NCBI RefSeq assembly: GCF_023055435.1
Contig: NW_025964079.1
Span: 434,001-498,000, forward strand
Direction of reading: 5' to 3'
Source: Haliotis rufescens
Taxonomy: Eukaryota
DNA: 64,000 nt
The position numbers and the translations under genes are program-made. The notes beneath the pieces are model-generated. The model saw only the letters and a list, made by a program, of their open reading frames with translations, was not told the origin of the DNA and ran no database searches. Each line of letters opens with the position of its first letter. Within the stretch, counting starts at the first letter, position 1. This document shows positions 15,002 through 64,000 of this stretch, one piece after another.

Positions 15002-15539
15002 GGCTGAACCCGACACTCCATTGTGTGAGCATCGATCTACGCAATTGGAAGACGATGACTTGCATCACTGTATCAACCAAGTCAGCGAGCAGGAATACGG
15101 ATCCATTTAGTTGTCTTTTGCAACAAACATATGTTAGGATCCAGGGATGCTTTAATTATTGACATGTTTTCGTACAATGCATTCCCATATTCTATTCATT
15201 GCTTTCCATTGAATATTTAACGAAACCACGTGCTTGTTTAAACAATGGCATTTGCATTCTCTGTCATCGGTTAATGCAGGGTAATAAGAGCGACAAAACC
15301 CTTTTCATGTCCATAACAAATCTGCTCAAAGGAGAGTCGATTGTACAATTCTCACTATCCTGAGCATGTGTTTATTTATTACTTTCACAGTGATGACACC
15401 ATGGGGGAGCGTATCCTGCCCCACTGTTGGCACCTGTCATAAACACCTTCAAAGTCAAATCAATTGATTCCGTAAAAAACACTGGGACAAGTAAAAAAAG
15501 TGAATTGCCTTGGACTTTATCTTTGTCATTGATGCGTGA

Positions 15540-15900
15540 AATGTGGAACTTTCCTCCACATGTCTACCATTAAACTGTTTGAAAGCTTCTCTGAGTCATT
15601 GAATCAAACAATTACAGAGACAAAGTTGTAATCTTCGTTAAAGAGCATGCTCGATTGTACCTCAAAAGTTGCGAAATGTAGACATGTGGACAATGTTTAT
15701 GCATAGATCTAAATATGAAACAGGTGAAGCGGTCTCACTGGTCTTCTTTATTCCTAGTTCAGATCAGGTGGGTAAATCAATGGAAGGAGATGGCTATTCG
15801 GTGCTTATTGAATACAATTTCAGTTGAACCATCAAGCCATTTCCGTGATGTCAAAAATGTAAAACAATTGCATCGAGTACGCCGACGAGGGACGACCTAC
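15540..15900 (-). mobile_element. Decayed Penelope-type RT fragment (copies at ~28300-28650, ~39880-40230, ~50690-51030)
   Basis: Copies translate as YSPELGIKETGE...SYLDVCIKI, matching the YPxELxIKxT..SYLD motif of PLE RTs. Confidence 0.55.
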
Positions 15901-16796
15901 GGCGACAAAATCCTTTAAGGCCAGGTGAGCTAAAACTAAGTTGTATGCTGGATGTCCTGATGTCGGCTCCTCCTTTCGCAAAAAACTAATCGCTTGTTTT
16001 GAAGCAGTGAAATTTTGGGTCCCCAACAGTATATTTTGACAAAAATAATAAAAATTCAATTCATCACATTAGAAGTTTCCATTCTCCACATTCTTATATT
16101 GAGATATTATTCTGACGGTATCGCAAATACAATTTCAGCAGTACGTCACATTTGGTATGTGACTGGTCAAATATTTAATAGGTTAATCCGAATTCTTACC
16201 TAATTAGCGTTCTGGTTATTCTAAAAGCGTTACCCTGCATGATTGTTTCAGTTTGATCACCGCAGACCTAAATATTTGTAGAAACGTAGTTTTTCAATAT
16301 TCGTTGGAGGGCATTAAAAAATGTAGATTTGCAGACACTACATTATTCAGAGAACATGTCAAATACATTGATAACAGACAATACGGTGTGTTTCAAATAT
16401 CGGAAATATTGAAACAACATGTACCATTGGATCAGTGAGGTCAATTGACGAGAAACTGATCGCTCTAAATTAATAAAACGGACAAACCTATTCCCATATT
16501 CATAAGAAATCTCTTCTAAAAGCAGAGTGAACGTTGATGACAAATCACTCACGCAATTTCCCGAGAAGCTAAAACATGTGCCACCTCTCAGTGATATATT
16601 AAATAAAGTGAGATAAATTGAAAGGGTCATATGTCAGTGAAATGGCATACACAAGTATGTTACTGACCAGTCTTCCGTAAATCAGTTCAGATCATTACCA
16701 TTATGTTTGTCTTTGACTTTATCGCCAAACGCATCTCAACCTTTTCCTTGGACAATGTCCAAAACTCGGAGTTGTAGGGTCCTAACATTTCACAAT

Positions 16797-18637: not shown

Positions 18638-19867
18638 TTAAAACACCGCTATGGACACCAACAGTACTGGGATCGCTATCAACAAAGGTATACACAACAC
18701 CCAGAAGAAAAACAGATCAAGGGCCTTGCTCACTCGATTCCACGTCATTACTTTAGTATGTTCCTTAGCCTCGGAATCATCTGATTGTTCTGTGTCCTCA
18801 GAGATATGGTTAGGATGCGACTTCTTTTGTCGACCACAGCTTTTAACATCTTCAACCCAGACGGTGATTCTTTGGAATGATTTAGGAACGGGTCGTGAAT
18901 TACTGCGTGCTGAGATCCTGACACTGAATATGCTGAGGATGACAAATAACGCAGACAATGATAGCGTGATTCCAAGGAAAATGATAAAGGTGGACACACC
19001 CTCGGAACTTTGTGGTACCATGTTTGTTAGAAATCCCATGTAGACTCCATAGGAAAGAGGAATTGTGATGGCAAATGATACTTTTTCTCCTGAATCTGCT
19101 GGAATGAGGAACACAAATGTTCCTAGAAGAGAGAGAATCATGACGGGAAGGATAAAGTTAAAGACAAAATTGGTTGGGAGTCTTTCTAGAATGAGTGTAA
19201 TTTTCACTGTTGACATTGTTTTGTTGTCAGAATGTTTTTTCAACGAAACGATAGTGGCTGACGTCAAACTCCACTGACCTCGTATATTGGAACTGGACAC
19301 TCCAGCACGAGATTGCCCTGGTTTCAGGTGAACTTCTGTCACTGAGTGTGACCACACAACCAGGTCCATAGAACACTTCAGGCTATCAAATGGGTACAAC
19401 TCAACGTCAACATTACATGGCAGGTAGAATAAATCCCCAGGCATCCACTGTATATGTCCATTTGAAAATAGTTTCAGAGACACGAAATCTCCTCCAAGGC
19501 GGTCGAGTTGTTGGAAGGAATTGGACACAACAAGATCAGGTATCCAGATGTAGCTATCTGGGGGTCTGATAAATTCAACTCCGTCATACATCTCAGAATT
19601 CCAGGTGAGAAACTGATCAGACCACGTCACAACAAACCACCCTGTGCATATGAGCTGTTGTTGAGACTCAATGTATCGGCTCACTGTGTGTAGATGAAAA
19701 TCAAATTCAACCGTAATAGTTTCGGATTTGTTGTAGACGGGCCTCTCGTATGGGTTGTTGTTCCAGATGATGTCATTGTAGAGGCGGAATTCACCAGTGG
19801 CTTTTCTGAGTTGTGTCTCAACGGACACAAAACCACAGGCAAGAATATACAAAATTGGCGACATCAT
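18638..19867 (-). CDS. Atypical nicotinic acetylcholine receptor-like Cys-loop channel subunit, type A copy 1 (single coding exon)
   Basis: 409 aa; signal peptide, RPV, WxD..W, WIPD, C-x13-C loop with YPFD, M1-M3, PADSGEK, W..V...LD..F M4; no loop C CC. Confidence 0.96.
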   Translation of the reverse strand: MMSPILYILACGFVSVETQLRKATGEFRLYNDIIWNNNPYERPVYNKSETITVEFDFHLHTVSRYIESQQQLICTGWFVVTWSDQFLTWNSEMYDGVEFIRPPDSYIWIPDLVVSNSFQQLDRLGGDFVSLKLFSNGHIQWMPGDLFYLPCNVDVELYPFDSLKCSMDLVVWSHSVTEVHLKPGQSRAGVSSSNIRGQWSLTSATIVSLKKHSDNKTMSTVKITLILERLPTNFVFNFILPVMILSLLGTFVFLIPADSGEKVSFAITIPLSYGVYMGFLTNMVPQSSEGVSTFIIFLGITLSLSALFVILSIFSVRISARSNSRPVPKSFQRITVWVEDVKSCGRQKKSHPNHISEDTEQSDDSEAKEHTKVMTWNRVSKALDLFFFWVLCIPLLIAIPVLLVSIAVF

Positions 19868-20626
19868 GGTCGTATAGCATCAGCCCTTATCTTCTTCCTC
19901 TGCGATGACAGCTTAATGCTCAGCACACTTGGCTGCCTGTTCTCAATTCTGAGACCAGCCGATGAAACACACTGACTTTGGTCAAAAGCACTTCTTGTGT
20001 CTTACCTGAAATTAATATGAAAAATAATTAAGTAATTCTTTCTGAATATATGCAAACAAATCTGGTTTTGTTGTGTGAGAGTGCTTATCAATTCTGAAAT
20101 TTGATAACATGCTGACCGTGTTGGGGCACAAATAATATATTTTGTTGTCTTTTGACTTGATCTGTTTGTTGTTTACCTCCGCGCTCAGCAATATTCAAGC
20201 TCTATGACATCAATCTCTGGATAATCGAGTCTGAACCAGACAATCAAGTGATTGACATCATACGCATCGATCTTAATAATTGGTATCTGATGAAATGCAT
20301 CAACCAATTTAGCGAGCTGGAAAACCCGATCCCGGATCTTCACAGCGGAACTTTTTGTGTGCAATGAGTCATTGTAAGATTGATCAGTTAGTCCGGTTTT
20401 CAAACTGAATCTGTGTTTTGCATATGGCATATTGAATTGAATTTATAGTAATAGTGTGAATGGTAGCTGATATTTTGAACCTTTCCGTGTACAAAATATG
20501 TACATTTAAATGGGTACTATGTATATATATTTAGTATCTTAAAAGCCACATGCAGATGGCCAAAGAATTGTTTGCAAGTTTCATTCCGCTGCTGACAATA
20601 CATGGTGAGGTGAGGTGAAGGTTATG

Positions 20627-20994: not shown

Positions 20995-22203
20995 GAATGA
21001 ATATATTGTTTATTCACAAAAAGTGTTAGCTCTTTTCTTACACCTTACGGTATCCTTATATGTTTTACACTGCAGTGAATAGGCTTGTAACGAAACATTA
21101 TTCTTTTTCCTATTAAAAACATCTAGTAGTCGGAAGGCTTCTCTTCTTTGATAATCACATTCTTTATCAAACCACGGACTGTCGCGTCCATGACGCTGAA
21201 CAATCCTACGCTTTGTAAAATCTGCTGCTTTCAACAAAGCGTCCGTAAATTTACTAATTTCTGCATATATGTCTGTTAATGCTAACGTAATACAATCATC
21301 AAACAAATGCTTAATTTCATCACATGAGACATTTTTTTTTAACCGATCACCAAAAATATCACGCCAAGTATACTTAATACAAACATCCGGCTTCACATTC
21401 TCACCCGACATAGCACTGTCAATTTCAGTATCATGTGACTGAAAGGTACAATTGGTTGGCGCGTGCAGAGACTCGATCCGAGATCCGATGTTAAAATTCT
21501 TACACAATGTAAACAAATCACTTGTTGTGATAACATAGTCAATAACGCTTGCGCCTGTAGGGGACATAAACGTAAAATCTCCCACACTGGCATCAGATCC
21601 ACAACGAACATTAAGTATAGACAAGTTTAGAGAAGCACACATATTAAGCAAAATTCGCCCAAATTTGTTCAGTCTTATCGGATGAAAATCGCTGTGTGCA
21701 AATACCCCGGCAGAGACAATGACACTTGTCAATGTGCAGAGCTCTACTTATATCGTCCTCAACAAAATCAAAGTCTGTTCCAGTGCGGGCGTTGAAGTCG
21801 CCCCCGAGGAGGATAGAGACGTCCCCCACTTGTTGAAGTACATATATTAACGCATCCTGGAGTATAGATACGCCACACTTGTCAGCTTTATTGACATACC
21901 AATTTGACTTCTCTGGATTGTTGTATGCACAACCTATAAGAGTGTCCTTAGCATTATTAAATACAGATTTCTTTAGCAAAATTAAAACACAGTTGTCACA
22001 TATTTTTGACCATAAAATGGATTTTGAAAGTGTTTTTTATTAACAATGTAATACAACCGGATAGCTTACCTTGTTTGGAGATTTGGCAAACATCAACATT
22101 AAAGTAAACATATTCAGAGAACTCCTTTGAAAAGTCGTAAGCTTTTAGCCAGGTTTCACACAATCCTATAATTGTAAATGTACGTATGTAATTAAGGAAT
22201 TCA
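20995..22203 (-). mobile_element. Endonuclease-only LINE derivative (APE domain + 3' tail), 11-bp TSD
   Basis: IGLCETW, GGDFNARTG, SVIDY, PWFDKEC motifs; AATAAA..ATTCATTC tail; TAATGAATGTT at 20984-20994 and 22204-22214. Confidence 0.88.
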
Positions 22204-23800: not shown

Positions 23801-24071
23801 AAAGAAACAAATATAATCAAAAGACTACTTTCGAAGCAGTTGCACATAATCGAATGCATTGAGTGAGTACATTATTGCTAAGATCTTATGTTTGCAAGGC
23901 GCTTGGTTCTGATAATGCTCAAATTAATTCTGTCTGAAAGATCCTCAAAACATTGTGTGAAGTATTTCTCCTCCCTCAAAATCTTTGTAAATGTTTTGTG
24001 ATGCGTAAACAGGTTTGAGTGGGATAGTGAATTTTGTACTGTACAGAGTGAAACCATCCACGACGATCTCA

Positions 24072-24180
24072 ACTGACGAATTCCATCTCTACGATCACCT
24101 GTAACATGAACCCATACGAGAGGCTTGTCTTCAACAAATAAGAAACTATTACAGTTGAATTTGACTTTCATCTGCATACC
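24072..24180 (+). pseudogene. Inverted 5' fragment of a receptor paralogue
   Basis: TDEFHLYD / NMNPYERLVFNK*ETITVEFDFHLHT vs TGEFRLYND..NNNPYERPVYNKSETITVEFDFHLHT; frameshift and stop. Confidence 0.85.
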
Positions 24181-24424
24181 GACACATTGAGTCACGAGAA
24201 CATTGAGTCATACAGATGGACAAGTGCATAAAACCATAAACAAACAAGCAAACAAAACATGCGACAAGACATACCGATCATTTGAATTAACTGGTTCGAT
24301 GTTTGTTCGCAAAGTAAACTTTTTGCTTTTGCTTCGGCCACCGAATATATGCCCGTTTAGGTAGACAGAACCTTTCAATCACTGGTTTGCCTGGTCCAGA
24401 CTGGGTAACTGTCATGCTGCGTGA

Positions 24425-26396: not shown

Positions 26397-27626
26397 CTAG
26401 AAGCCCAAGTTCAAGCCGATGTATATCAGTGTTATTGGAATTCCCACAAGTGAAGGGATACACAACAACCAGAAGAAAAACAAATCCAGTGCTTTGCTCA
26501 CTCGTTTCCATGTGACGGGCTGAGTAGTCTTCGCCTGAAGTTCTTGTAACTGTCCAGATTCCTCAATTGCAGGTTTGTCACGGTTTCCAAACCGGCCAAA
26601 TGCATCGACCTTTTCGACCCAAATTGTGAATCTTTGTAATGTTTTACGAATGGGTTTCGATTCACTCTGTCCACAGAACCGGACACTGAAGATGCTGACG
26701 ATGACAAATACTGCAGACATTGTTAGTGTGAGTCCAAGGATGATGATGAAGGGCGATATACCCTGGGAGCTCTGGGGTATCATGTCTGTGAGAAAGCCCA
26801 TGTAGACCCCATATGACAGAGGAATCGTTATGGCAAAGGATATTTTTTCTCCTGAATCTGCAGGAATGAGAAACACAAATGTCCCCAGGACGGACAGGAT
26901 CAACACAGGGAGGATGAAGTTGAAGACAAAATGCACAGGGCGTCTGTCCAGTGTAAGCGTAATAAGCACATGTGATATTGGCTTGTTGTCAAAGGTCTTT
27001 TCCTTGGCTGTGATTGATGTTGGTTTTAGCCTCCACTGACCTCCTATGTTTGAACTAGATGTTCCAGCTACTGACTGACGGACTTTCAGGTCAACTTCTG
27101 ACGTCGAATATGACCAGACGACAATCTCCATAGAACACTTCAGGCTATCAAATGGATACATTAGAACGTCCGTTTCACAATGCAGGTAGAATAAGTCTCC
27201 TGTCATCCACTGCACGTGTCCATAAGAGGATACTTTCAAAGGCACGAAATCTCCTCCAATGTGGTTTAGTTGTTGGAAGGAATTGGACACAACAAGATCA
27301 GGTTTCCACACGTAGCTATCTGGGGGTCTGATAAACTCAACTCCGTCATACATCTCAGAATTCCAGGTGAGAAACTGATCAGACCACGACACATCAAACC
27401 ACCCTGTGCATAGGAGCTGTTGTTGAGACTCAGTGTATCGGCTCACTGTGTGTAGATGAAAGTCAAATTCAACTGTTATAGTTTCGGATTTGTTGTAGAC
27501 GGGCCTCTCGTATGGGTTGTTGTTCCAGATGATGTCATTGTAGAGGCGGAATTCACCAGTGGAGTGTCTGGCTGACTCGATAGACACAACACCAATCACC
27601 AAATTACAGATTGTGAAGAGTAGCAT
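26397..27626 (-). CDS. Atypical nAChR-like Cys-loop channel subunit, type B copy 1
   Basis: 409 aa; signal peptide, WKPD, CETDVLMYPFDSLKC Cys-loop, PADSGEKIS, four TM helices, no loop C CC. Confidence 0.96.
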   Translation of the reverse strand: MLLFTICNLVIGVVSIESARHSTGEFRLYNDIIWNNNPYERPVYNKSETITVEFDFHLHTVSRYTESQQQLLCTGWFDVSWSDQFLTWNSEMYDGVEFIRPPDSYVWKPDLVVSNSFQQLNHIGGDFVPLKVSSYGHVQWMTGDLFYLHCETDVLMYPFDSLKCSMEIVVWSYSTSEVDLKVRQSVAGTSSSNIGGQWRLKPTSITAKEKTFDNKPISHVLITLTLDRRPVHFVFNFILPVLILSVLGTFVFLIPADSGEKISFAITIPLSYGVYMGFLTDMIPQSSQGISPFIIILGLTLTMSAVFVIVSIFSVRFCGQSESKPIRKTLQRFTIWVEKVDAFGRFGNRDKPAIEESGQLQELQAKTTQPVTWKRVSKALDLFFFWLLCIPSLVGIPITLIYIGLNLGF

Positions 27627-30606
27627 GATTGCACAGATGGTAATGTAGAACTTCGCAGTGTAGAGTTTTGATGCCGTGGAGCTGCAATAATGAAAAGATA
27701 CACGTGTCTCAGAGGTAAAATAAGTGGGAATGTAAAATAGTCAAATTGATATTGTTAGATTGTTTGATATCTAACGCCGCATTCAGGAATATATATAGCT
27801 CGAGGCTGGACCCGCGTCAGCGAGCAGGAACACCCAATCCATTTAGTGTCTCTTGCAACAAACATCGGTTAGAATAAAGGGATGCTTTAATTAACGCTAT
27901 ACTAAATCCACAACGTACAATGCATTCCATTCATTGCTTTCCAACGAAAACACGAGCTTGTTTAATCGATGGCATTTGCATTTTCTTTCATAGGTAAATG
28001 CAGGGAAATGAGAGCGACAAAACCCTTTTCATGTCCATTACAAATCTGCTCAAATGAGAGTTGATTGTACGATTCCCACTATCCTGAGCATGTGTTTAGT
28101 AATTACTATCAAATTGTGATTAAAACTCCTTTTTCGCGAAAAAGGGAGCAGATCCTGCCCCACTAGTGGCACCCGTCGCAAACACATTCAAAGTCAAATC
28201 AATTGTTTAACACGGGGACAAGTCCAAATAGGGAATTGCATCGGACATTATATTTGTCACTGATGGGTCAAATTTGAAACTTTCCTCTGTATGTCTACAT
28301 TAAAAATGGTTGAAAGCTTTGCTCAATCATTGAATGTTGTAACCTTGATCAAACAACTACTGACACAGAGTTGTAATCTTCGTAAAAGGGGCATGCTCGA
28401 TTGACCTCAAAAGTTGCAAAAATGTAGAAATTGGGAGAGTGTTTTGTCACTCTGAATCTTTATGCATACATCTAAATATTAATCAGATAAAATGGTCTCA
28501 CCAGTCTCCTTTATTCCTAGTTCAGGTGAGTAAAACAATTGAAGGGAATTGTTATTCGGTGCTTATTGAATACAATTTTAACTGAACCATCAAGCCATGT
28601 CGGAGATGTCAAAAATGTAAAACAATTGCATTGAGTACGCCGACGACGGACGACCTGCGGCGACAAAATCCTTTTAGGCCAGGTGAGCTAAAAATAAGTT
28701 GTATGCTGGATGTCCTGATGTCGGCTCCTTCCTCCACAGAATACTGAGGCACTGAAATTGTGGGTCCCTATATTATCGTATATTTTGACAAAAATGATAA
28801 AAATTCAATTCATCACATCAGAAGTCTCAATTCTCCACATTCTTATTCTGAGATATAATTCTAATTGTTTCGCAAATACAATTTTAGCAGTACGTCACGT
28901 TTGGCATGTGAGTGGTCAAATATTTAATAAGTTAATCCGAAATCTTACCTAATCAGCGTTCTGGTTATTCTAAAAGACATTGCCCTGCATGACTGTATCA
29001 GTTTGATCACCGCAGACCTAAATATTTGTTGAAAGGTTTATTTCTCAATAATTGTTGATGGGCATTTTATTTACAAAATGCAGATTTGCATTCACTACGT
29101 TATTCAAAGCATATGTCAAATACATTTTTGACAGACAATATCCATTTTTGACAGAAATATTGAAACAAAAATGAAACATTGGATCAGTGAGGTCATGTGA
29201 CGAGAAACTGATCGCTCTTATACCGAAATAAATAAAATATATAACGGATAAAACCATTCCCATATTCATAAGAAATAGTGAATGGTGATATCAAACCTCT
29301 TACGCAATTGCAGATAGGCTAATAACATGTGCTACCTCTCAATGATATAATGAATAAAGTAAAATAAATAGAAGGGTCATATTCCAGTTAAATGGTATGT
29401 TCAAGTATGTTACTTACCAGTCCTCCGAAAATCAGTTTAGATTATTACCATTATGTTTGTCTTTGCCTTTATCGCCAAACACATCTGAACCTTTTCGATG
29501 GACACTGTCAAGTCATGGAAACAGTTGAACAGCTGCATTTATCCCAAAGAACTATCTGCTATCAAAAAGCACAATGATTTACGTTGACAAAATCCGCTCA
29601 TAAAATCCCAACTCTGTTCTGTTTGCACACAATAGCTTGGACTGTTCAGGATGTCAAAACTCGGAGTTGTAGTGTCCTAATATTTCACAATGAAACACGA
29701 ATTCCCAGCATAAAAGGAACAGGTGTTTTGTGCGTCCAACTACTTTCGCAGTTCATTTACAATTTATGGGATCCAGACAGTGCAATGTAAACATGGGCAC
29801 AGAGGCCCAGAGCATCACAGCAATCAATAACCGTCAGTACACGTTATCACAGATTCCATTGTGCAGCAATATTAATAATTGGCACCAACTGTGATACCAT
29901 CTGTGGAAACCAAGGAATCTTTAGTTCGTGGCAGTCGCAGACGTTGCTGCCTTCAAGATAAACACATGTGCCCTAGTGTCACCTTAACGCATGTGTCTAA
30001 CTGCACACATAAAAAATAAAATAATATTGTGAGTTATTGATAATTATATGCTATTTGCACATGAGAATTTTAACAATTTTCAATGCTGAATGGTCAGTTA
30101 AAAGGGAGATGACGCCAAATTTGTCCATTCTGGAGAACAAAATGATACGATTTTATTCATTATTCATGTCTCTTAAAAGCATTTTATCATCTGAACACTG
30201 TTTCCGATATGTAACCATGACGTTTGATTCGTCCTTCCTCATTTATTCTCACAAAACGTATTGCATAAACCAAAGCACGGGGCGTACAGTTTTGAGTTTT
30301 GGGTCGAGAAAAACTAATGTCATCACTGATTTGCAGTGATCCATTCATATAGCTTTCACTGTCGTTTTGCCTTTTGTGTGGAAAGGAATCTGTTTTGACG
30401 GATTATTGACGGAGACTGGTTATTCTCTGGTGACGGCGCTTTGTATTTCTGATGGCGCATCATAATTGTGCATACTCAAGTCATAAAAAAACCAAAGATC
30501 TTGTCATTGATTCCTACGCACACTTCACAATGAATATTTAATTACTATAACCTATTCTACTAAATACGACATATACAACTGATGGTTCGTAAGAAACATT
30601 TTGTCA

Positions 30607-31836
30607 TTAAAACACCGCAATGGACACCAACAGTACTGGAATAGCTATCAACAAAGGTATACACAACACCCAGAAGAAAAACAGATCCAGGGCCTTGCTC
30701 ACTCGCTTCCACGTCATTACTTGAGTATGTTCCTTAGCCTCGGAATCATCTGATTGTTCTGTGTCCTCAGAGATATGGTTAGGATGCGACTTTTTTTTTC
30801 GACCACAGCTTTTAACATGTTCAACCCAGACGGTGATTCTTTGGAATGATTTAGGAACGGGTCGTGAATTACTGCGTGCTGAGATCCTGACACTGAATAT
30901 GCTGAGGATGACAAATAACGCAGACAATGATAGCGTGATTCCAAGGAAAATGATAAAGGTGGACACACCCTCGGAACTTTGTGGTACCATGTTTGTTAGA
31001 AAACCCATGTAGACTCCATAGGAAAGAGGAATTGTGATGGCAAATGATACTTTTTCTCCTGAATCTGCTGGAATGAGGAACACAAATGTTCCTAGAAGAG
31101 AGAGAATCATGACGGGAAGGATAAAGTTAAAGACAAAATTGGTTGGGAGTCTTTCTAGAATGAGTGTAATTTTCACTGTTGACATTGTTTTGTTGTCAAA
31201 ATGTTTTTTCAACGAAATGATAGTGGCTGACGTCAAACTCCACTGACCTCGTATATTGGAACTGGACACTCCAGCACGAGATTGCAGTGGTTTCAGGTCA
31301 ACTTCTGTCACTGAGTGTGACCACACAACCAGGTCCATAGAACACTTCAGGCTATCAAATGGGTACAACTCAACATCCACACTACATGGCAGGTAGAATA
31401 AATCCCCAGGCATCCACTGTATATGTCCATTTGAAAATAGTTTCAGAGACACGAAATCTCCTCCAAGGCGGTCGAGTTGTTGGAAGGAATTGGACACAAC
31501 AAGATCAGGTATCCAGATGTAGCTATCTGGGGGTCTGATAAATTCAACTCCGTCATACATCTCAGAATTCCAGGTGAGAAACTGATCAGACCACGTCACA
31601 ACAAACCACCCTGTGCATAGGAGCTGTTGTTGTGACTCAATGTATTTGCTCAATGTGTGTAGATGAAAGTCAAAATCAACTGTAATAGTTTCGGATTTGT
31701 TGTAGACGGGCCTCTCGTATGGGTTGTTGTTCCAGATGATGTCATTGTAGAGGCGGAATTCACCAGTGGCGTTTCTGAGTTGTGTCTCAACAGACACAAA
31801 ACCACAAGCAAGAATATACAAAATTGGCGACATCAT
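30607..31836 (-). CDS. Atypical nAChR-like subunit, type A copy 2
   Basis: Intact 409-aa ORF, near-identical to A1. Confidence 0.96.
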   Translation of the reverse strand: MMSPILYILACGFVSVETQLRNATGEFRLYNDIIWNNNPYERPVYNKSETITVDFDFHLHTLSKYIESQQQLLCTGWFVVTWSDQFLTWNSEMYDGVEFIRPPDSYIWIPDLVVSNSFQQLDRLGGDFVSLKLFSNGHIQWMPGDLFYLPCSVDVELYPFDSLKCSMDLVVWSHSVTEVDLKPLQSRAGVSSSNIRGQWSLTSATIISLKKHFDNKTMSTVKITLILERLPTNFVFNFILPVMILSLLGTFVFLIPADSGEKVSFAITIPLSYGVYMGFLTNMVPQSSEGVSTFIIFLGITLSLSALFVILSIFSVRISARSNSRPVPKSFQRITVWVEHVKSCGRKKKSHPNHISEDTEQSDDSEAKEHTQVMTWKRVSKALDLFFFWVLCIPLLIAIPVLLVSIAVF

Positions 31837-32975: not shown

Positions 32976-34167
32976 GAATGAATATATTGTTTATTCTCAA
33001 AAAGTGTTAGCTCTTTTCTTACACCTTACGGTATCCTTATATGTTTTACGCTGCAGTGAATAGGCTTGTAACGAAACATTATCCTTTTTCCTATTAAAAA
33101 CATCTAGTAGGCTTCTCTTCTGTGATAATCACATTCTTTATCAAACCACGGACAGTCGCGTCCATGACGCTGAACAATCTTACGCTTTGTAAAATCTGCT
33201 GCTTTCAACAAAGCGTCCGTAAATTTACTAATTTCTGCATTTATGTCTGTTAATGCTAACGTAATACAATCATCAAACAAATGCTTAATTTCATCACATG
33301 AGACATTTTCTTTTAACCGATCACCAAAAATATCACGCCAAGTATACTTAATACAAACATCCGTCTTCACATTCTCACCCGACATAGCATTGTCAATTTC
33401 AGTATAATGTGACTGAAAGGTACAATTGGTTGGCGCGTGCGGAGACTCGATCCGAGATCCGATGTTAAAATTCTTACACAATGTAAACAAATCACTTGTT
33501 ATGATAACATAGTCAATAACGCTTGCGCCTGTAGGGGACATAAACGTAAAATCTCCCACACTGGCATCAGATCCACAACGACCATTAAGTATAGACAAGT
33601 TTAGAGAAGCACACATATTAAGCAAAATTCGCCCAGTCTTATCTGATGAAAATCGCTGTGTGCAAATACCCCGGCAGAGACAATGACACTTGTCAATGTG
33701 CAGAGCTCTAATTATATCGTCCTCAACAAAATCAAAGTCTGTTCCAGTGCGGGCGTTGAAGTCGCCCCCGAGGTGGATAGAGGCGTCCCCCACTTGTTGA
33801 AGTACATATATTAACGCATCCTGGAGTATAGATACGCCACACTTGTCAGCTTTATTGACATACCAATTTGACTTCTCTGGATTGTTGTATGCACAACCTA
33901 TAAGAGTGTCCTTAGCATTATTAAATACAGATTTCTTTAACAAAATTAAAACACAGTTGTCACATATTTTTGACCATAAAATGGATTTTGAAAGTGTTTT
34001 TTATTAACAATGTAATACCACCGGATAGCCGACCTTGTTTGGAGATTTGGCAAACATCAACATTAAAGTAAACATATTCAGAGAACTCCTTTGAAAAGTC
34101 GTAAGCTTTTAGCCAGGTTTCACACAATCCTATAATTGTAAATGTACGTATGTAATTAAAGAATTCA
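32976..34167 (-). mobile_element. Endonuclease-only LINE derivative, duplicated with the unit
   Basis: Same boundaries as 20995-22203; TSD at 32965-32975 (1 mismatch) and 34168-34178. Confidence 0.88.
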
Positions 34168-37975: not shown

Positions 37976-39205
37976 CTAGAAACCCAAGTTCAAGCCGATG
38001 TATAGCAGTGTTATTGGAATTCCCAAAAGTAAAGGGATACACAGCACCCAGAAGAAAAACAAATCCAGTGCTTTGCTCACTCGTTCCCATGTGACGGGCT
38101 GATTAGCCTTAGCCTGAAGCTCTTGTAACTGTCCAGATTCCTCTATTGCAGGTTTGTCACGGTTTCCAAACCGGCCAAATGCATCGACCTTTTCGACCCA
38201 AGTTGTGAATCTTTGTAATGTTTTACGAATGGGTTTCGATTCACTCTGTCCACAGAACCGGACACTGAAGATGCTGACGATGACAAATACTGCAGACATT
38301 GTAAGTGTGAGTCCAAGGATGATGATGAAGGGCGATATACCCTGGGAGCTCTGGGGTATCATATCTGTGAGAAAGCCCATGTAGACCCCATATGACAGAG
38401 GAATCGTTATGGCAAAGGATATTTTTTCTCCTGAATCTGCAGGAATGAGAAACACAAATGTCCCCAGGACGGACAGGATCAACACAGGGAGGATGAAGTT
38501 GAAGACAAAATGCACAGGGCGTCTGTCCAGTGTAAGCGTAATAAGCACATGTGATATTGGCTTGTTGTCAAAGGTCTTTTCCTTGGCTGTGATTGATGTT
38601 GGTTTTAGCTTCCACTGACCGCCTATGTTTGAACTAGATGTTCCAGCTACTGACTGGCGGACTTTCAGGTCAACTTCTGACGTCGAATATGACCAGACGA
38701 CAATCTCCATGGAACACTTCAGGCTATCAAATGGATACATTAGAACGTCCGTTTCACAATGCAGGTAGAATAAGTCTCCTGTCATCCACTGCACGTGTCC
38801 ATCAGAGGATACTTTCAAAGGCACGAAATCTCCTCCAATGTGGTTTAGTTGTTGGAAGGAATTGGACACAACAAGATCAGGTTTCCACACGTAGCTATCT
38901 GGGGGTCTGATAAACTCAACTCCGTCATACATCTCAGAATTCCAGGTGAGAAACTGATCAGACCACGTCACATCAAACCACCCTGTGCATAGGAGCTGTT
39001 GTTGAGACTCAGTGTATCGGCTCACTGTGTGTAGATGAAAGTCAAATTCAACTGTTATAGTTTCGGATTTGTTGTAGACGGGCCTCTCGTATGGGTTGTT
39101 GTTCCAGATGATGTCATTGTAGAGGCGGAATTCACCAGTTGAGTGTCTGGCTGACTCGATAGACACAACACCAATCACCAAATTACAGATTGTGAAGAGT
39201 AGCAT
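37976..39205 (-). CDS. Atypical nAChR-like subunit, type B copy 2
   Basis: Intact 409-aa ORF. Confidence 0.96.
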   Translation of the reverse strand: MLLFTICNLVIGVVSIESARHSTGEFRLYNDIIWNNNPYERPVYNKSETITVEFDFHLHTVSRYTESQQQLLCTGWFDVTWSDQFLTWNSEMYDGVEFIRPPDSYVWKPDLVVSNSFQQLNHIGGDFVPLKVSSDGHVQWMTGDLFYLHCETDVLMYPFDSLKCSMEIVVWSYSTSEVDLKVRQSVAGTSSSNIGGQWKLKPTSITAKEKTFDNKPISHVLITLTLDRRPVHFVFNFILPVLILSVLGTFVFLIPADSGEKISFAITIPLSYGVYMGFLTDMIPQSSQGISPFIIILGLTLTMSAVFVIVSIFSVRFCGQSESKPIRKTLQRFTTWVEKVDAFGRFGNRDKPAIEESGQLQELQAKANQPVTWERVSKALDLFFFWVLCIPLLLGIPITLLYIGLNLGF

Positions 39206-42555: not shown

Positions 42556-43785
42556 TTAAAGCACTGCTATGGACAGCAACAGTACTGGAATCGCTATCAA
42601 CAAAGGTATACACAACACCCAGAAGAAAAACAGATCCAGAGCCGTGCTCACTCGCTTCCACGTCATTACTTGAATATGTTCCTTAGCCTCGCCCTCATCT
42701 GATTGTTCTGTGTCCTCAGAGATATGGTTAGGATGCAACCTTCTTTGTCGACGGCAGTTTTTAACATGTTCAACCCAGACGGTGATTCTTTGGAATGCTT
42801 TAGGAACGGGTCGTGAATTACTGAGTGCTGAGATCCTGACACTGAATATGCTGAGGATGACAAATAATGCAGACAATGATAGCGTGATTCCAAGGAAAAT
42901 GATAAAGGTGGACACACCCTCGGAACTTTGTGGTACCATGTTTGTTAGAAATCCCATGTAGACACCATAAGAAAGAGGAAGTGTGATGGCAAATGATACT
43001 TTTTCTCCTGAATCTGCTGGAATGAGGAACACAAACGTTCCTAGAAGAGAGAGAATCATGACGGGAAGGATAAAGTTAAAGACAAAATTGGTTGGGAGTC
43101 TTTCTAGAATGAGTGTAATTTTCACTGTTGACATTGTTTTGTTGTCAGAATGTTTTTTCAACGAAATGATAGTGGCTGACGTCAAACTCCACTGACCCCG
43201 TATATTGGAACTGGACACTCCAGCACGAGATTGCAGTGGTTTCAGGTCAACTTCTGTCACTGAGTGTGACCACACAACCAGATTCATAAAACACTTCAGG
43301 CTATCAAATGGGTACAACTCAACGTCAACATTACATGGCAGGTAGAATAAATCCCCAGGCATCCACTGTATATGTCCATTTGAAAATAGTTTCAGAGACA
43401 CGAAATCTCCTCCAAGGCGGTCGAGTTGTTGGAAGGAATTGGACACAACAAGATCCGGTTTCCACACGTAGCTATCTGGTGGTCTGATAAACTCAACTCC
43501 GTCATACATCTCAGAATTCCAGGTGAGAAACTGATCAGACCACGTCACGACAAACCACCCTGTGCATAGGAGTTGTTGTTGAGACTCAATGTATTGGCTC
43601 AATGTGTGTAGATGAAAGTCAAATTCAACTGTAATAGTTTCGGATTTGTTGTAGACGGGCCTCTCGTTTGGGTTGTTGTTCCAGATGATGTCATTGTAGA
43701 GGCGGAATTCACCAGTGGCGTTTCTGAGCTGTGTCTCAACAGACACAAAACCACAAGCAAGAATAAACAAAATTGCTGACATCAT
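42556..43785 (-). CDS. Atypical nAChR-like subunit, type A copy 3 (most divergent A)
   Basis: Intact 409-aa ORF; B-like YVWKPD patch. Confidence 0.96.
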   Translation of the reverse strand: MMSAILFILACGFVSVETQLRNATGEFRLYNDIIWNNNPNERPVYNKSETITVEFDFHLHTLSQYIESQQQLLCTGWFVVTWSDQFLTWNSEMYDGVEFIRPPDSYVWKPDLVVSNSFQQLDRLGGDFVSLKLFSNGHIQWMPGDLFYLPCNVDVELYPFDSLKCFMNLVVWSHSVTEVDLKPLQSRAGVSSSNIRGQWSLTSATIISLKKHSDNKTMSTVKITLILERLPTNFVFNFILPVMILSLLGTFVFLIPADSGEKVSFAITLPLSYGVYMGFLTNMVPQSSEGVSTFIIFLGITLSLSALFVILSIFSVRISALSNSRPVPKAFQRITVWVEHVKNCRRQRRLHPNHISEDTEQSDEGEAKEHIQVMTWKRVSTALDLFFFWVLCIPLLIAIPVLLLSIAVL

Positions 43786-46571: not shown

Positions 46572-46680
46572 ACTGACGAATTCCATCTCTACGATCACCT
46601 GTAACATGAACCCATACGAGAGGCTTGTCTTCAACAAATAAGAAACTATAACAGTTAAATTTGACTTTCATCTGCATACC
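46572..46680 (+). pseudogene. Inverted 5' receptor fragment, second copy
   Basis: Duplicate of 24072-24180. Confidence 0.85.
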
Positions 46681-47422
46681 GACACATTGAGTCACGAGAA
46701 CATTGAGTCATACAGATGGACAAGTGCATAAAACCATAAACAAATAAGCAAACAAAACATGCGACAAGACATACCGATCGTTTGAATTAACTGGTTCGAT
46801 GTTTGTTCGCAAAGTAAACTTTTTGCTTTTGCTTCGGCCACCGAATATATGCCCGTTTAGGTAGACAGAAACTTTCAATCACTGGTTTGCCTGGTCCAGA
46901 CTGGGTAACTGTCATGGTGCGTGAGTCAGTAACTGAGTTTGGTTTTACGCCGCTTTTAGCAATATTCTAGCAATATGTCGGAGGACACCGGAAATGGGTT
47001 TCACACATTTTACCCGTCTGGGGAATGAATCCCGGACCTTTGATATGATGAGCGAACACTTTAACCGCCAGACTACCCAACGGCCACCATGATATGTTTT
47101 GAAAACTGCTGATTGTGGCGTTAAACCATCACTTGATAAGCATCCTAAACGTGGTATGATCACATCTTATCTTGGTCCCATGTCTCTCCAGTGCATGCCG
47201 CAAGAACAGATTGAAACAACACGTTCAGAAATTGTTGCCAGGCTGACCCTGTTTTTGCACTGTGATGACTGAGAAAATCATACAATGTTTTCTATGCTAG
47301 AAACAGTTAATGCGGTCACCCGCAACTGGACGCCACGTGGCAATCAGAGTGGTTATCTTGCTTCGATATCGTCGAATAACGATCTATTATAACAGAAAAA
47401 AGGGAGAAAATAGAGACGAAGA

Positions 47423-48771: not shown

Positions 48772-50001
48772 CTAGAAGCCCAAGTTCAAGCCGATGTATA
48801 TCAGTGTTATTGGAATTCCCACAAGTGAAGGGATACACAACAACCAGAAGAAAAACAAATCCAGTGCTTTGCTCACTCGTTTCCATGTGACGGGCTGAGT
48901 AGTCTTCGCCTGAAGCTCTTGTAACTGTCCAGATTCCTCAATTGCAGGTTTGTGACGGTTTCCAAACCGGCCAAATGCATCGACCTTTTCGACCCAAATT
49001 GTGAATCTTTGTAATGTTTTACGAATGGGTTTCGATTCACTCTGTCCACAGAACCGGACACTGACGATGCTGACGATGACAAATACTGCAGACATTGTTA
49101 GTGTGAGTCCAAGGATGATGATGAAGGGCGATATACCCTGGGAGCTCTGGGGTATCATGTCTGTGAGAAAGCCCATGTAGACCCCATATGACAGAGGAAT
49201 CGTTATGGCAAAGGATATTTTTTCTCCTGAATCTGCAGGAATGAGAAACACAAATGTCCCCAGGACGGACAGGATCAACACAGGGAGGATGAAGTTGAAG
49301 ACAAAATGCACAGGGCGTCTGTCCAGTATAAGCGTAATAAGCACATGTGATATTGGCTTGTTGTCAAAGGTCTTTTCCTTGGCTGTGATTGATGTTGGTT
49401 TTAGCCTCCACTGACCGCCTATGTTTGAACTAGATGTTCCAGCTACTGACTGGCGGACTTTCAGGTCAACTTCTGACGTCGAATATGACCAGACGACAAT
49501 CTCCATGGAACACTTCAGGCTATCAAATGGATACATTAGAACGTCCGTTTCACAATGCAGGTAGAATAAGTCTCCTGTCATCCACTGCACGTGTCCATAA
49601 GAGGATACTTTCAAAGGCACGAAATCTCCTCCAATGTGGTTTAGTTGTTGGAAGGAATTGGACACAACAAGATCAGGTTTCCACACGTAGCTATCTGGGG
49701 GTCTGATAAACTCAACTCCGTCATACATCTCAGAATTCCAGGTGAGAAACTGATCAGACCACGACACATCAAACCACCCTGTGCATAGGAGCTGTTGTTG
49801 AGACTCAGTGTATCGGCTCACTGTGTGTAGATGAAAGTCAAATTCAACTGTTATAGTTTCGGATTTGTTGTAGACGGGCCTCTCGTATGGGTTGTTGTTC
49901 CAGATGATGTCATTGTAGAGGCGGAATTCACCAGTGGAGTGTCTGGCTGACTCGATAGACACAACACCAATCACCAAATTACAGATTGTGAAGAGCAGCA
50001 T
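48772..50001 (-). CDS. Atypical nAChR-like subunit, type B copy 3
   Basis: Intact 409-aa ORF, closest to B1. Confidence 0.96.
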   Translation of the reverse strand: MLLFTICNLVIGVVSIESARHSTGEFRLYNDIIWNNNPYERPVYNKSETITVEFDFHLHTVSRYTESQQQLLCTGWFDVSWSDQFLTWNSEMYDGVEFIRPPDSYVWKPDLVVSNSFQQLNHIGGDFVPLKVSSYGHVQWMTGDLFYLHCETDVLMYPFDSLKCSMEIVVWSYSTSEVDLKVRQSVAGTSSSNIGGQWRLKPTSITAKEKTFDNKPISHVLITLILDRRPVHFVFNFILPVLILSVLGTFVFLIPADSGEKISFAITIPLSYGVYMGFLTDMIPQSSQGISPFIIILGLTLTMSAVFVIVSIVSVRFCGQSESKPIRKTLQRFTIWVEKVDAFGRFGNRHKPAIEESGQLQELQAKTTQPVTWKRVSKALDLFFFWLLCIPSLVGIPITLIYIGLNLGF

Positions 50002-52999: not shown

Positions 53000-54229
53000 T
53001 TAAAACACCGCAATGGACACCAACAGTACTGGAATCGCTATCAACAAAGGTATACACAACACCCAGAAGAAAAACAGATCCAGGGCCTTGCTCACTCGCT
53101 TCCACGTCATTACTTGAGTATGTTCCTTAGCCTCGGAATCATCTGATTGTTCTGTGTCCTCAGAGATATGGTTCGGATGCGACCTTTTTTGTCGACCACA
53201 GCTTTTAACATGTTCAACCCAGACGGTGATTCTTTGGAATGCTTTAGGAACGGGTCGTGAATTACTGCGTGCTGAGATCCTGACACTGAATATGCTGAGG
53301 ATGACAAATAACGCAGACAATGATAGCGTGATTCCAAGGAAAATGATAAAGGTGGACACACCCTCGGAACTTTGTGGTACCATGTTTGTTAGAAATCCCA
53401 TGTAGACTCCATAGGAAAGAGGAATTGTGATGGCAAATGATACTTTTTCTCCTGAATCTGCTGGAATGAGGAACACAAATGTTCCTAGAAGAGAGAGAAT
53501 CATGACGGGAAGGATAAAGTTAAAGACAAAATTGGTTGGGAGTCTTTCTAGAATGAGTGTAATTTTCACTGTTGACATTGTTTTGTTGTCAAAATGTTTT
53601 TTCAACGAAATGATAGTGGCTGACGTCAAACTCCACTGACCTCGTATATTGGAACTGGACACTCCAGCACGAGATTGCCGTGGTTTCAGGTCAACTTCTG
53701 TCACTAAGTGTGACCACACAACCAGGTCCATAAAACACTTCAGGCTATCAAATGGGTACAACTCAACATCCACACTACATGTCAGGTAGAATAAATCCCC
53801 AGGCATCCACTGTATATGTCCATTTGAAAATAGTTTCAGAGACACGAAATCTCCTCCAAGGCGGTCGAGTTGTTGGAAGGAATTGGACACAACAAGATCA
53901 GGTATCCAGATGTAGCTATCTGGGGGTCTGATAAATTCAACTCCGTCATACATCTCAGAATTCCAGGTGAGAAACTGATCAGACCACGTCACATCAAACC
54001 ACCCTGTGCATAGGAGCTGTTGTTGAGACTCAATGTATCGGCTCACTGTGTGTAGATGAAAGTCAAAATCAACTGTAATAGTTTCGGATTTGTTGTAGAC
54101 GGGCCTCTCGTATGGGTTGTTGTTCCAGATGATGTCATTGTAGAGGCGGAATTCACCAGTGGCGTTTCTGAGTTGTGTCTCAACAGACACAAAACCACAA
54201 GCAAGAATAAACAAAATTGGCGACATCAT
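53000..54229 (-). CDS. Atypical nAChR-like subunit, type A copy 4
   Basis: Intact 409-aa ORF. Confidence 0.96.
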   Translation of the reverse strand: MMSPILFILACGFVSVETQLRNATGEFRLYNDIIWNNNPYERPVYNKSETITVDFDFHLHTVSRYIESQQQLLCTGWFDVTWSDQFLTWNSEMYDGVEFIRPPDSYIWIPDLVVSNSFQQLDRLGGDFVSLKLFSNGHIQWMPGDLFYLTCSVDVELYPFDSLKCFMDLVVWSHLVTEVDLKPRQSRAGVSSSNIRGQWSLTSATIISLKKHFDNKTMSTVKITLILERLPTNFVFNFILPVMILSLLGTFVFLIPADSGEKVSFAITIPLSYGVYMGFLTNMVPQSSEGVSTFIIFLGITLSLSALFVILSIFSVRISARSNSRPVPKAFQRITVWVEHVKSCGRQKRSHPNHISEDTEQSDDSEAKEHTQVMTWKRVSKALDLFFFWVLCIPLLIAIPVLLVSIAVF

Positions 54230-63267: not shown

Positions 63268-64000
63268 CTAGAAACCCAAGTTCAAGCCGATGTATATCAG
63301 TGTTATTGGAATTCCCAAAAGTAAAGGGATACACAGCACCCAGAAGAAAAACAAATCCAGTGCTTTGCTCACTCGTTCCCATGTGACGGGCTGAGTAGCC
63401 TTAGCCTGAAGCTCTTGTAACTGTCCAGATTCCTCAATTGCAGGTTTGTCACGGTTTCCAAACCGGCCAAATGCATCGACCTTTTCGACCCAAATTGTGA
63501 ATCTTTGTAATGTTTTACGAATGGGTTTCGATTCACTCTGTCCACAGAACCGGACACTGAAGATGCTGACGATGACAAATACTGCAGACATTGTAAGTGT
63601 GAGTCCAAGGATGATGATGAAAGGCGATATACCCTGGGAGCTCTGGGGTATCATGTCTGTGAGAAAGCCCATGTAGACCCCATATGACAGAGGAATCGTT
63701 ATGGCCAAGGATATTTTTTCTCCTGAATCTGCAGGAATGAGAAACACAAACGTCCCCAGGACGGACAGGATCAACACAGGGAGGATGAAGTTGAAGACAA
63801 AATGCACAGAGCGTCTGTCAAGTGTAAGCGTAATAAGCACATGTGATATTGGCTTGTTGTCAAAGGTCTTTTCCTTGGCTGTGATTGATGTTGGTTTTAG
63901 CTTCCACTGACCGCCTATGTTTGAACTAGATGTTCCAGCTACTGACTGGCGGACTTTCAGGTCAACTTCTGACGTCGAATATGACCAGACGACAATCTCC
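63268..64000 (-). CDS. Atypical nAChR-like subunit, type B copy 4 (5' part beyond window)
   Basis: Co-linear with B2 up to the window edge; M1-M4 intact. Confidence 0.93.
   Translation of the reverse strand, partial: EIVVWSYSTSEVDLKVRQSVAGTSSSNIGGQWKLKPTSITAKEKTFDNKPISHVLITLTLDRRSVHFVFNFILPVLILSVLGTFVFLIPADSGEKISLAITIPLSYGVYMGFLTDMIPQSSQGISPFIIILGLTLTMSAVFVIVSIFSVRFCGQSESKPIRKTLQRFTIWVEKVDAFGRFGNRDKPAIEESGQLQELQAKATQPVTWERVSKALDLFFFWVLCIPLLLGIPITLIYIGLNLGF

What the first reader, a model, noticed from the sequence alone, without database searches (positions are those of the whole stretch)
19208..19560. Acetylcholine-binding box dismantled in both subunit types; possible glycan on loop C in type A only
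Loop C (canonical YxCC...Y) reads SLKKHS/FDNKTMST in A and AKEKTFDNKPISH in B, with no cysteines or tyrosines. The loop A Tyr is Ser (PDLVVSN). Only loop B Trp (VVWSH/VVWSY) and loop D Trp (TGWF) remain. Neither type is an alpha subunit, so an A/B pentamer would have no canonical ACh site. Type A has an N-K-T sequon at the loop C tip; type B has N-K-P (no sequon). This suggests asymmetric interfaces. The basic loop C could point to a non-cationic ligand (inference).
Basis: partly seen in the sequence, partly recalled or inferred. Interest (0 to 1): 0.7.

Follow-up and report, generated by a model that had tools for sequence, protein, structure and literature searches.

The report
Abalone paired non-acetylcholine receptor subunits
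Two alternating, intact abalone genes for nicotinic-receptor-like channel subunits lack most acetylcholine-binding residues, which is ordinary for this large mollusc gene family, but they share one half of their binding domain through gene conversion and differ in the other half, so they likely form a channel for some other, unknown chemical.

Summary
Observation essentially correct; its surprise value is overstated. The window holds an abalone array of nine Cys-loop channel genes with intronless coding regions, alternating A-B-A-B-A-B-A-B-A. Against alpha7, the vicinal cysteines are deleted, Y93 is Ser, Y195 is Met/Ile, W55 and W149 remain. The loss is not special: 0 of 57 sampled paralogues in this genome and 1 of 116 database relatives have the cysteines, and this is published for molluscs. 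The loop C sequon is real, at a predicted hairpin tip, in 11 of 12 A-type and 0 of 6 B-type proteins, but 11-16% of relatives have one too. More distinctive, found here: A and B are homogenised over codons 24-121 (dS 0.08 against about 0.9; P 2e-9); loop F has lost all acidic residues; E193 is Lys/Arg; M2 has a proline at 8', shared with a limpet relative. Both types occur in 4 of 4 transcriptome-like runs, with a splice joint. Best reading: orphan cation channel, likely A/B heteromer, non-acetylcholine ligand; ligand and tissue unknown.

The parts
18638..19867 (-). A1: single-exon ORF, 409 aa, Cys-loop channel subunit type A
19208..19243 (-). A1 loop C hairpin: no Cys; Ser213 at alpha7 Y188 (19229-19231; Phe in A2, A4, all B), sequon Asn215 (19223-19225), Lys216 at E193, Met218 at Y195
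19301..19303 (-). A1 loop F Gly189 at alpha7 D164; loop F has no acidic residue in 9 of 9 copies
19352..19354 (-). A1 loop B Trp172 (alpha7 W149), preceded by Val at the position of alpha-type Gly147
19523..19525 (-). A1 loop A Ser115 (alpha7 Y93)
19637..19639 (-). A1 loop D Trp77 (alpha7 W55)
19505..19798 (-). Gene-conversion tract, codons 24-121 (alpha7 2-99; loops D and A), homogenised between A and B
19058..19060 (-). Pro270 at M2 position 8', in all 18 family members examined
19868..20007 (-). A1 5' UTR part of the coding exon and AG splice acceptor (20006-20007)
26397..27626 (-). B1 ORF, 409 aa, type B; loop C at 26970-27005 with N-K-P, no sequon
27682..29417 (-). B1 5' UTR intron, GT-AG
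29418..29502 (-). B1 upstream non-coding exon (part covered by a contig)
30607..31836 (-). A2 ORF (Phe at Y188, F-D-N-K-T)
37976..39205 (-). B2 ORF
42556..43785 (-). A3 ORF
48772..50001 (-). B3 ORF
53000..54229 (-). A4 ORF (Phe at Y188)
63268..64000 (-). B4 ORF, 3' part; it continues past the window end, and A5 follows (both whole in L001)

Best explanation
A and B are intact non-alpha Cys-loop channel subunits of an old gastropod orphan lineage that lacks the acetylcholine box, and they likely co-assemble into a cation channel predicted to be opened by a ligand other than acetylcholine, probably a neutral or anionic one. Shown: the residues, the alternating array, purifying selection, the conversion tract, spliced contigs of both types in the same runs. 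Inferred: loss of the box is inherited from the whole intron-poor molluscan expansion, not an event at this locus. The pocket would be framed by W149, W55, Phe/Ser188, Met119 and Met/Ile195, with Lys193 and Lys109 on its rim and no loop F acid. Conversion keeps the first half of the ectodomain (loops D and A, much of the assembly surface) the same in A and B, while loops E, B, F and C differ, so a heteromer would carry two kinds of principal face. A glycan on the A hairpin tip would narrow access from outside rather than form the site. Step odds: not ACh-gated as A/B alone 0.85; sequon used 0.75; A+B heteromer 0.5; external chemosensor rather than internal receptor 0.4.
For: Box residues. -1' Glu (G-E-K) in 9 of 9, the cation-type motif of PMC13174522 (passage). 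9 of 9 ORFs open; A vs B dN/dS 0.13 in M1-M3 and 0.30 in the diverged half of the ectodomain. No fixed A/B nucleotide difference in codons 24-121, 145 in codons 122-320; synonymous differences 5.5/64 vs 73.5/147, Fisher P 2.3e-9. Trees disagree: the tract groups by species (UFBoot 97), the rest by type (100); an H. cracherodii A and B share a substitution (N116S) seen in no other species here. A- and B-specific contig pieces in 4 of 4 runs laid, from 4 studies and 4 coded organisms; a GT-AG joint for B; A contigs of two studies stop at an AG acceptor and go on with other letters. Both types also in H. cracherodii. Loop F acid 0 of 9 vs 47 of 57 and 112 of 116. Cephalopod CRs show that this family can become ACh-insensitive homo- and heteropentameric chemosensors (PMC11526382, passages).
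Against: No ligand, tissue or assembly data. The runs are contigs only, 'RNA' is the tool's guess, depth is low (about 2-10) and they were found with gene A; same sample does not mean same cell. A conversion island can persist without selection once its flanks diverge. B-type proteins were not found in H. rubra or H. asinina, where A-like genes may work alone. Whole-ectodomain charge is ordinary (-6 to -9) and the principal-face pocket positions are net 0 to +1. A basic residue at position 109 occurs in 17 of 57 paralogues and, from memory, in Lymnaea AChBP, which binds ACh. B keeps W55, W149, Y151, F188 and mostly Asp57, enough for some cation binding. Model identity to CRT1 (25%) and CRB1 (20%) is no higher than to alpha7 (28%).
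Confidence: 0.45

Rival explanations
1. A and B form separate homopentamers (or A works alone); the alternating array is just repeated duplication of an AB block and the conversion tract is a neutral, self-maintaining island of homology.
For: Only A-like proteins were found in H. rubra and H. asinina. Each B gene has its own upstream exon. Closest solved sequence is the homomeric alpha7. The tract's 5' edge is at the fast-evolving signal peptide.
Against: Strict alternation over nine genes, both types in 4 of 4 runs, conversion repeated in a second species.
Confidence: 0.25
2. A and B are beta-like accessory subunits that supply the complementary face or a structural slot to canonical alpha subunits in ordinary ACh receptors.
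For: W55 kept in 9 of 9 but in only 25 of 57 paralogues and 34 of 116 relatives. 26 genome matches to the alpha loop C pattern vs 1 control; 16 of 20 translated loci are alpha-type channel exons.
Against: The complementary face has lost the loop F acid and aromatic (0 of 9) and is net +2 in 4 of 5 A copies; B loop C is invariant in 6 of 6 proteins, unexpected for an unused principal face; the M2 proline would sit oddly in a canonical pore (inference).
Confidence: 0.12
3. They are EAT-2-like non-alpha receptors still gated, at low affinity, by ACh, choline or another amine, mainly through the B principal face.
For: EAT-2 lacks the cysteines yet is a homomeric ACh receptor (PMC7173930, passages). 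B keeps W55, W149, Y151, F188 and Asp57 in 3 of 4 copies.
Against: EAT-2 keeps a loop C Tyr; A/B have lost Y93 and Y195, have Val for the alpha-type Gly two before W149 (role described in bioRxiv 10.1101/2025.10.31.685654, passage) and Lys at E193. Alpo4 keeps more aromatics and still does not respond to ACh (PMC10338036, passages).
Confidence: 0.08
4. The orthosteric pocket is vestigial and the channel is opened by pH, metal ions or lipid, or leaks constitutively because the 8' proline kinks M2 next to the 9' gate.
For: 8' Pro in 18 of 18 family members and the limpet relative, 0 of 57 paralogues, 1 of 116 relatives; several His near the pocket.
Against: W149 and W55 are kept and B loop C is invariant; the model keeps M2 helical throughout, though a monomer model cannot show gating.
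Confidence: 0.1

Closest known systems
Molluscan intron-poor, tandemly arrayed nAChR-like genes (Jiao et al. 2019, PMC6896357; MolluscaGenes, PMC13174522)
   Same: Intronless coding region, tandem array, non-alpha, altered binding residues, G-E-K motif. In C. gigas only 33 of 132 are alpha and 13 keep the full principal site (passage).
   Different: [quoted passage not shown] Alternating two-type array, half-ectodomain conversion, type-specific loop C sequon and M2 8' Pro were not seen in those passages.
Cephalopod chemotactile receptors (CRT1 9e6b, CRB1 8eiz)
   Same: nAChR-derived, intronless, ACh-insensitive, homo- and heteropentameric. Same fold: CRB1 Z 24.6, rmsd 2.8, 308 aligned; CRT1 Z 22.6, rmsd 2.9, 287 aligned.
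   Different: Identity 20-25%, not above alpha7 (28%); nearest relatives are gastropod proteins at 33-36%. CRT1 uses an aromatic hydrophobic pocket (Y58, W122, F124, F192); A/B have basic residues on the rim. Sensory expression not shown here.
Vertebrate alpha7 nAChR
   Same: Best solved sequence match (E 9e-46); Cys-loop, W55, W149, -1' Glu, 9' Leu; B keeps the loop C Pro194.
   Different: C190/C191 deleted, Y93, Y195, D164, Y168 lost, E193 reversed, short intracellular loop, 8' Pro.
Loop C N-glycans of cobra and mongoose alpha1 (PMC7601176)
   Same: N-x-S/T on loop C; there it sterically blocks large peptide ligands (passages).
   Different: Those are on working alpha subunits that keep the ACh box; here it is on a non-alpha subunit and no selecting agent is known.
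C. elegans EAT-2; Alvinella Alpo4
   Same: Non-alpha, alpha7-like, no vicinal cysteines.
   Different: Both keep loop C tyrosine(s); EAT-2 is ACh-gated with EAT-18, Alpo4 is an orphan that binds a sterol detergent.

Membership tests
[quoted passage not shown] | C-x13-C loop | tested here: met
   9 of 9
[quoted passage not shown] | Neur_chan_LBD plus four membrane helices | tested here: met
   Pfam PF02931 and PF02932 above cut-off in 7 of 7 window ORFs; model with four helices, pLDDT 92.5
nAChR alpha subunit | Vicinal cysteines in loop C | tested here: not met
   0 of 9
nAChR alpha subunit | Principal aromatic box Y93, W149, Y188, Y195 | tested here: not met
   W149 9 of 9; Y93, Y188, Y195 0 of 9; Phe at 188 in 6 of 9
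Molluscan intron-poor nAChR-like expansion | Intronless or 1-2 introns | tested here: met
   single coding exon; one 5' UTR intron shown for B, acceptor for A
Molluscan intron-poor nAChR-like expansion | Tandem array, lineage-specific paralogues | tested here: met
   nine genes in about 50 kb; clade of Haliotis genes plus a Patella protein and one unnamed protein, FastTree support 0.98
Molluscan intron-poor nAChR-like expansion | Origin by retroposition | not tested
   inferred from gene structure and PMC6896357 only
Cation-selective pLGIC | -1' Glu (G-E-K) before M2 | tested here: met
   9 of 9
Cation-selective pLGIC | Measured cation permeability | not testable with these tools
   needs electrophysiology
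Cephalopod chemotactile receptors (CR / CR-like clade) | Placement in the CR or CR-like clade | tested here: inconclusive
   no CR sequence was returned for a tree; structural identity 20-25% vs 28% to alpha7
Cephalopod chemotactile receptors (CR / CR-like clade) | Loss of ACh-binding residues | tested here: met
   not diagnostic, shared by 57 of 57 paralogues
Cephalopod chemotactile receptors (CR / CR-like clade) | Expression in sensory epithelium and gating by poorly soluble ligands | not testable with these tools
   run tissues are coded
EAT-2-type non-alpha ACh receptor | Keeps W149, W55 and the second loop C Tyr | tested here: not met
   Y195 is Met/Ile in 9 of 9

The most novel reading that the evidence does not exclude
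Abalone evolved, independently of cephalopods, an obligate two-subunit ionotropic chemoreceptor for anionic or sulfated environmental cues: gene conversion locks a shared assembly half of the ectodomain, selection keeps two different ligand halves, a loop C glycan shields the A faces so that only B faces admit bulky ligands, and an ancient M2 proline changes the gate.
Probability: 0.12. Interest if true: 0.8.

Novelty: new variant of a known kind. Interest (0 to 1): 0.42.

Why it matters
The headline (ACh box gone) is the normal state of hundreds of molluscan nAChR-like genes and is in print. What makes this array useful is that it is a small natural experiment: two subunits identical in loops A and D and different in loops B, C, E and F, conserved and apparently transcribed together across abalone species. 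That makes it a tractable pair for the open question of what non-cephalopod molluscs do with their expanded receptor family, and whether gastropods have CR-like ionotropic chemosensors. A natural proline beside the 9' gate, kept between abalone and limpet, would interest channel biophysicists on its own.

Tried and rejected
Pseudogenes or assembly artefact: rejected; 9 of 9 ORFs open, dN/dS 0.13 in M1-M3, spliced contigs, both types in H. cracherodii. Locus-specific loss of the box: rejected. Shared 5' exon spliced to A or B: the B upstream exon has five copies, four ahead of B genes and one orphan at 16668-16752, none between an A gene and the B upstream of it; A's upstream exon was not located. 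Positive selection on A loop C: the ratio of 9 rests on almost no synonymous changes and is not used. Amino-acid gating of GABA/glycine/glutamate type: the loop D position that carries the carboxylate-binding Arg in those receptors (recalled) is Val/Asp/Phe/Thr here. No complex prediction was sent, since any pair of these subunits would resemble solved pentamers. CRs were not among the 34 Foldseek rows shown or the 60 rows. The primary CR papers were not held, so CR statements rest on a review and two preprints (passages only). Literature searches for a description of this array or of conversion between pLGIC subunits found none in the listings (titles and abstract starts only; subscription journals are not covered). 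Earlier scan notes: none relevant.

Full report
Setting. The window has seven complete minus-strand ORFs of 409 aa that match Pfam Neur_chan_LBD and Neur_chan_memb; an eighth is cut by the window end and a ninth follows. They alternate A-B-A-B-A-B-A-B-A; copies are 95-99% identical within a type and about 75% between types at DNA level. Named homologues at 75-93% identity are all from abalones (Haliotis rufescens, H. asinina, H. rubra), with three A-type and two B-type proteins in H. cracherodii.

The observation. Against alpha7 (numbering): W55 and W149 are kept, Y93 is Ser, loop C is two residues shorter with C190/C191 gone, Y195 is Met (A) or Ile (B). Residue 213 matches Y188 by HMMER, by one MAFFT run and by distance from the conserved Trp before beta9; a larger MAFFT run placed the gap two columns earlier. 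It is Phe in 6 of 9 copies, Ser in three A copies, Leu in H. rubra and H. asinina. So the box is largely but not wholly dismantled. An AlphaFold2 model of A2 from a 119-sequence alignment (pLDDT 92.5) shows beta9, a two-residue Asp-Asn turn and beta10: the sequon Asn is at the tip, and residue 213 pairs across the hairpin with Lys216 (read from the strand limits), the equivalent of alpha7 E193.

Is the loss special? No. A genome search gave 352 candidates, 150 scored. I fetched 56 regions around the better-scoring non-array matches plus 4 flanks; with the window this gave 76 channel ORFs; 10 under 370 aa were dropped, leaving 9 array genes and 57 others. Of the 57: vicinal Cys 0, Y93 2, W149 43, W55 25; 42 keep two or fewer of the five canonical aromatics, as the array does. 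The sample is biased towards long open frames similar to A1. Of 149 database representatives, 116 of 330-520 aa were scored: vicinal Cys 1, Y93 2, W149 89; some are the same genome's paralogues, so the sets overlap. Canonical alpha genes exist elsewhere in the genome: 26 pattern matches against 1 control; of 20 translated, 16 are alpha-type channel exons, 2 AChBP-like, 2 spurious. In print: C. gigas has 33 alpha of 132, 13 with a full site, and the expanded genes are intron-poor and tandem (PMC6896357, first part and passages); a phylum-wide survey reports clades with substituted binding residues and CR-like sequences in gastropods (PMC13174522, passages; its supplement was unreadable and may place these abalone genes).

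The sequon. Loop C has a sequon in 11 of 12 A-type and 0 of 6 B-type proteins from four species. It is N-K-T at the turn in this genome and H. cracherodii, but N-V/I-S two residues further on in H. rubra and one H. asinina gene, and absent in the other. B's Pro matches alpha7 P194, so A's Thr is probably derived. Background is 6 of 57 and 18 of 116, so a sequon in one type is not rare; retention at two positions is only two lineages and a weak hint of selection. In vertebrate alpha1, loop C glycans block large peptide ligands sterically (PMC7601176, passages); by analogy the glycan would limit access, not make the site. F-x-N-x-T in A2 and A4 resembles the 'enhanced aromatic sequon' (recalled, no call).

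Charge. Loop C is net +2 (A) and +1 (B); 13 of 57 paralogues are also positive. One Lys matches a basic residue of alpha7; the E193 reversal is real and holds in 18 of 18. Better support for a non-cationic ligand is loop F: no Asp or Glu in 9 of 9, against 47 of 57 and 112 of 116, with the aromatic and the Glu of G-E-W also lost. That loop F acids help bind ACh is established knowledge, recalled. Whole-ectodomain charge is ordinary.

What was not in the finding. (1) Conversion: codons 24-121 have no fixed A/B nucleotide difference and dS 0.08, against 145 fixed differences and dS about 0.9 in codons 122-320 (P 2.3e-9 for A1 vs B1). Outside the tract, A is closer to the H. asinina and H. rubra genes than to B (93% vs 79-80% in M1-M3); inside it, genes group by species. 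So A and B split before those species did and the tract has been converted since, still after the H. cracherodii split. It covers alpha7 2-99 (loops D, A); the A/B pocket differences fall in loops E, B, F, C, plus position 57, which varies among copies (Val, Asp, Phe). (2) M2 has Pro at 8' beside the 9' Leu in 18 of 18 family members, 0 of 57 paralogues and 1 of 116 relatives; that one is a Patella caerulea protein that groups with the family (support 0.98) and also has a loop C sequon. (3) Expression: 4 of 24 listed runs were laid. All four hold A-specific and B-specific pieces; one contig joins 29418-29502 to 27681 across a GT-AG intron, and A contigs of two studies stop at the acceptor at 20006 with extra letters; several flanking bins are empty. 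These are contigs of runs guessed to be RNA; tissue and level are unknown.

Mechanism. Shown: intact, constrained, apparently transcribed non-alpha subunits with a cation-type pore motif. Inferred: they open to a ligand other than ACh at a pocket framed by two Trp, Phe/Ser188 and Met/Ile, with basic rim residues; A and B co-assemble, helped by a shared N-terminal half (that this half carries assembly determinants is recalled); A faces carry a tip glycan, B faces keep Phe188 and Tyr151 and an invariant loop C, so B may give the main principal face. Rivals are separate homomers, accessory subunits of alpha receptors, EAT-2-like ACh gating (PMC7173930, passages) and a vestigial pocket.

Comparison. 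It works like an orphan molluscan nAChR-like channel and may work like a cephalopod CR, but CR membership is not shown: structural matches to CRB1 (Z 24.6, rmsd 2.8, 308 aligned, 20%) and CRT1 (Z 22.6, rmsd 2.9, 287 aligned, 25%) are below alpha7 (Z 30.9, rmsd 6.8, 370 aligned, 28%), and nearest relatives are gastropod. It fails the alpha-subunit test.

Verdict. The type-specific sequon is real but of unproven meaning. The conversion mosaic, acid-free loop F and M2 proline make this a distinct variant worth a functional test. I found no description of it in five searches (listings only). Interest 0.42.

Noticed in passing
window 19058-19060 and the same site in all copies: Proline at M2 8', next to the 9' Leu gate, with Tyr 11' and Gly 16'; shared with a Patella protein (P0056), absent from 57 paralogues.
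   Followed up: partly
window 15077-16759: Relic of a B gene's upstream exon and intron (79% identity; exon copy at 16668-16752) with no B coding exon after it; the array was once longer.
   Followed up: partly
window 24068-24210 and 46568-46702 (+ strand): Inverted, decayed fragments of the N-terminal ectodomain (about 76% identity) between A and B genes.
   Followed up: partly
window 19631-19633 (alpha7 position 57) and 19229-19231 (position 188): Pocket positions that vary among near-identical copies (Val/Asp/Phe/Thr; Ser/Phe/Leu), possibly tuning ligand preference.
   Followed up: partly
window 55379-59493, 33104-34000, 21010-22036 (- strand): Broken LINE retrotransposon (endonuclease and reverse transcriptase pieces) inside the array, duplicated with the AB unit.
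   Followed up: no
window 20005-20007: The A acceptor is directly followed by a donor-like GTAAG in A1, A2 and A4 but not in A3 and A5.
   Followed up: no
G000 contigs C113, C23, C35, C112, C124, C594, C290 and others (L005-L060): At least 150 nAChR-like matches, mostly long open frames in tandem clusters; each cluster has its own loop C; a few lack the Cys-loop cysteines or the -1' Glu.
   Followed up: partly
L071-L072 (G000:C23:75817-79408): AChBP-like exons with a tandem repeat of the loop C exon, on the same contig as a cluster of non-alpha genes.
   Followed up: no
L075-L080 (G000:C113:3.09-3.52 Mb): Cluster of alpha-type exons with P-A-K before M2, the anion-selective motif.
   Followed up: no
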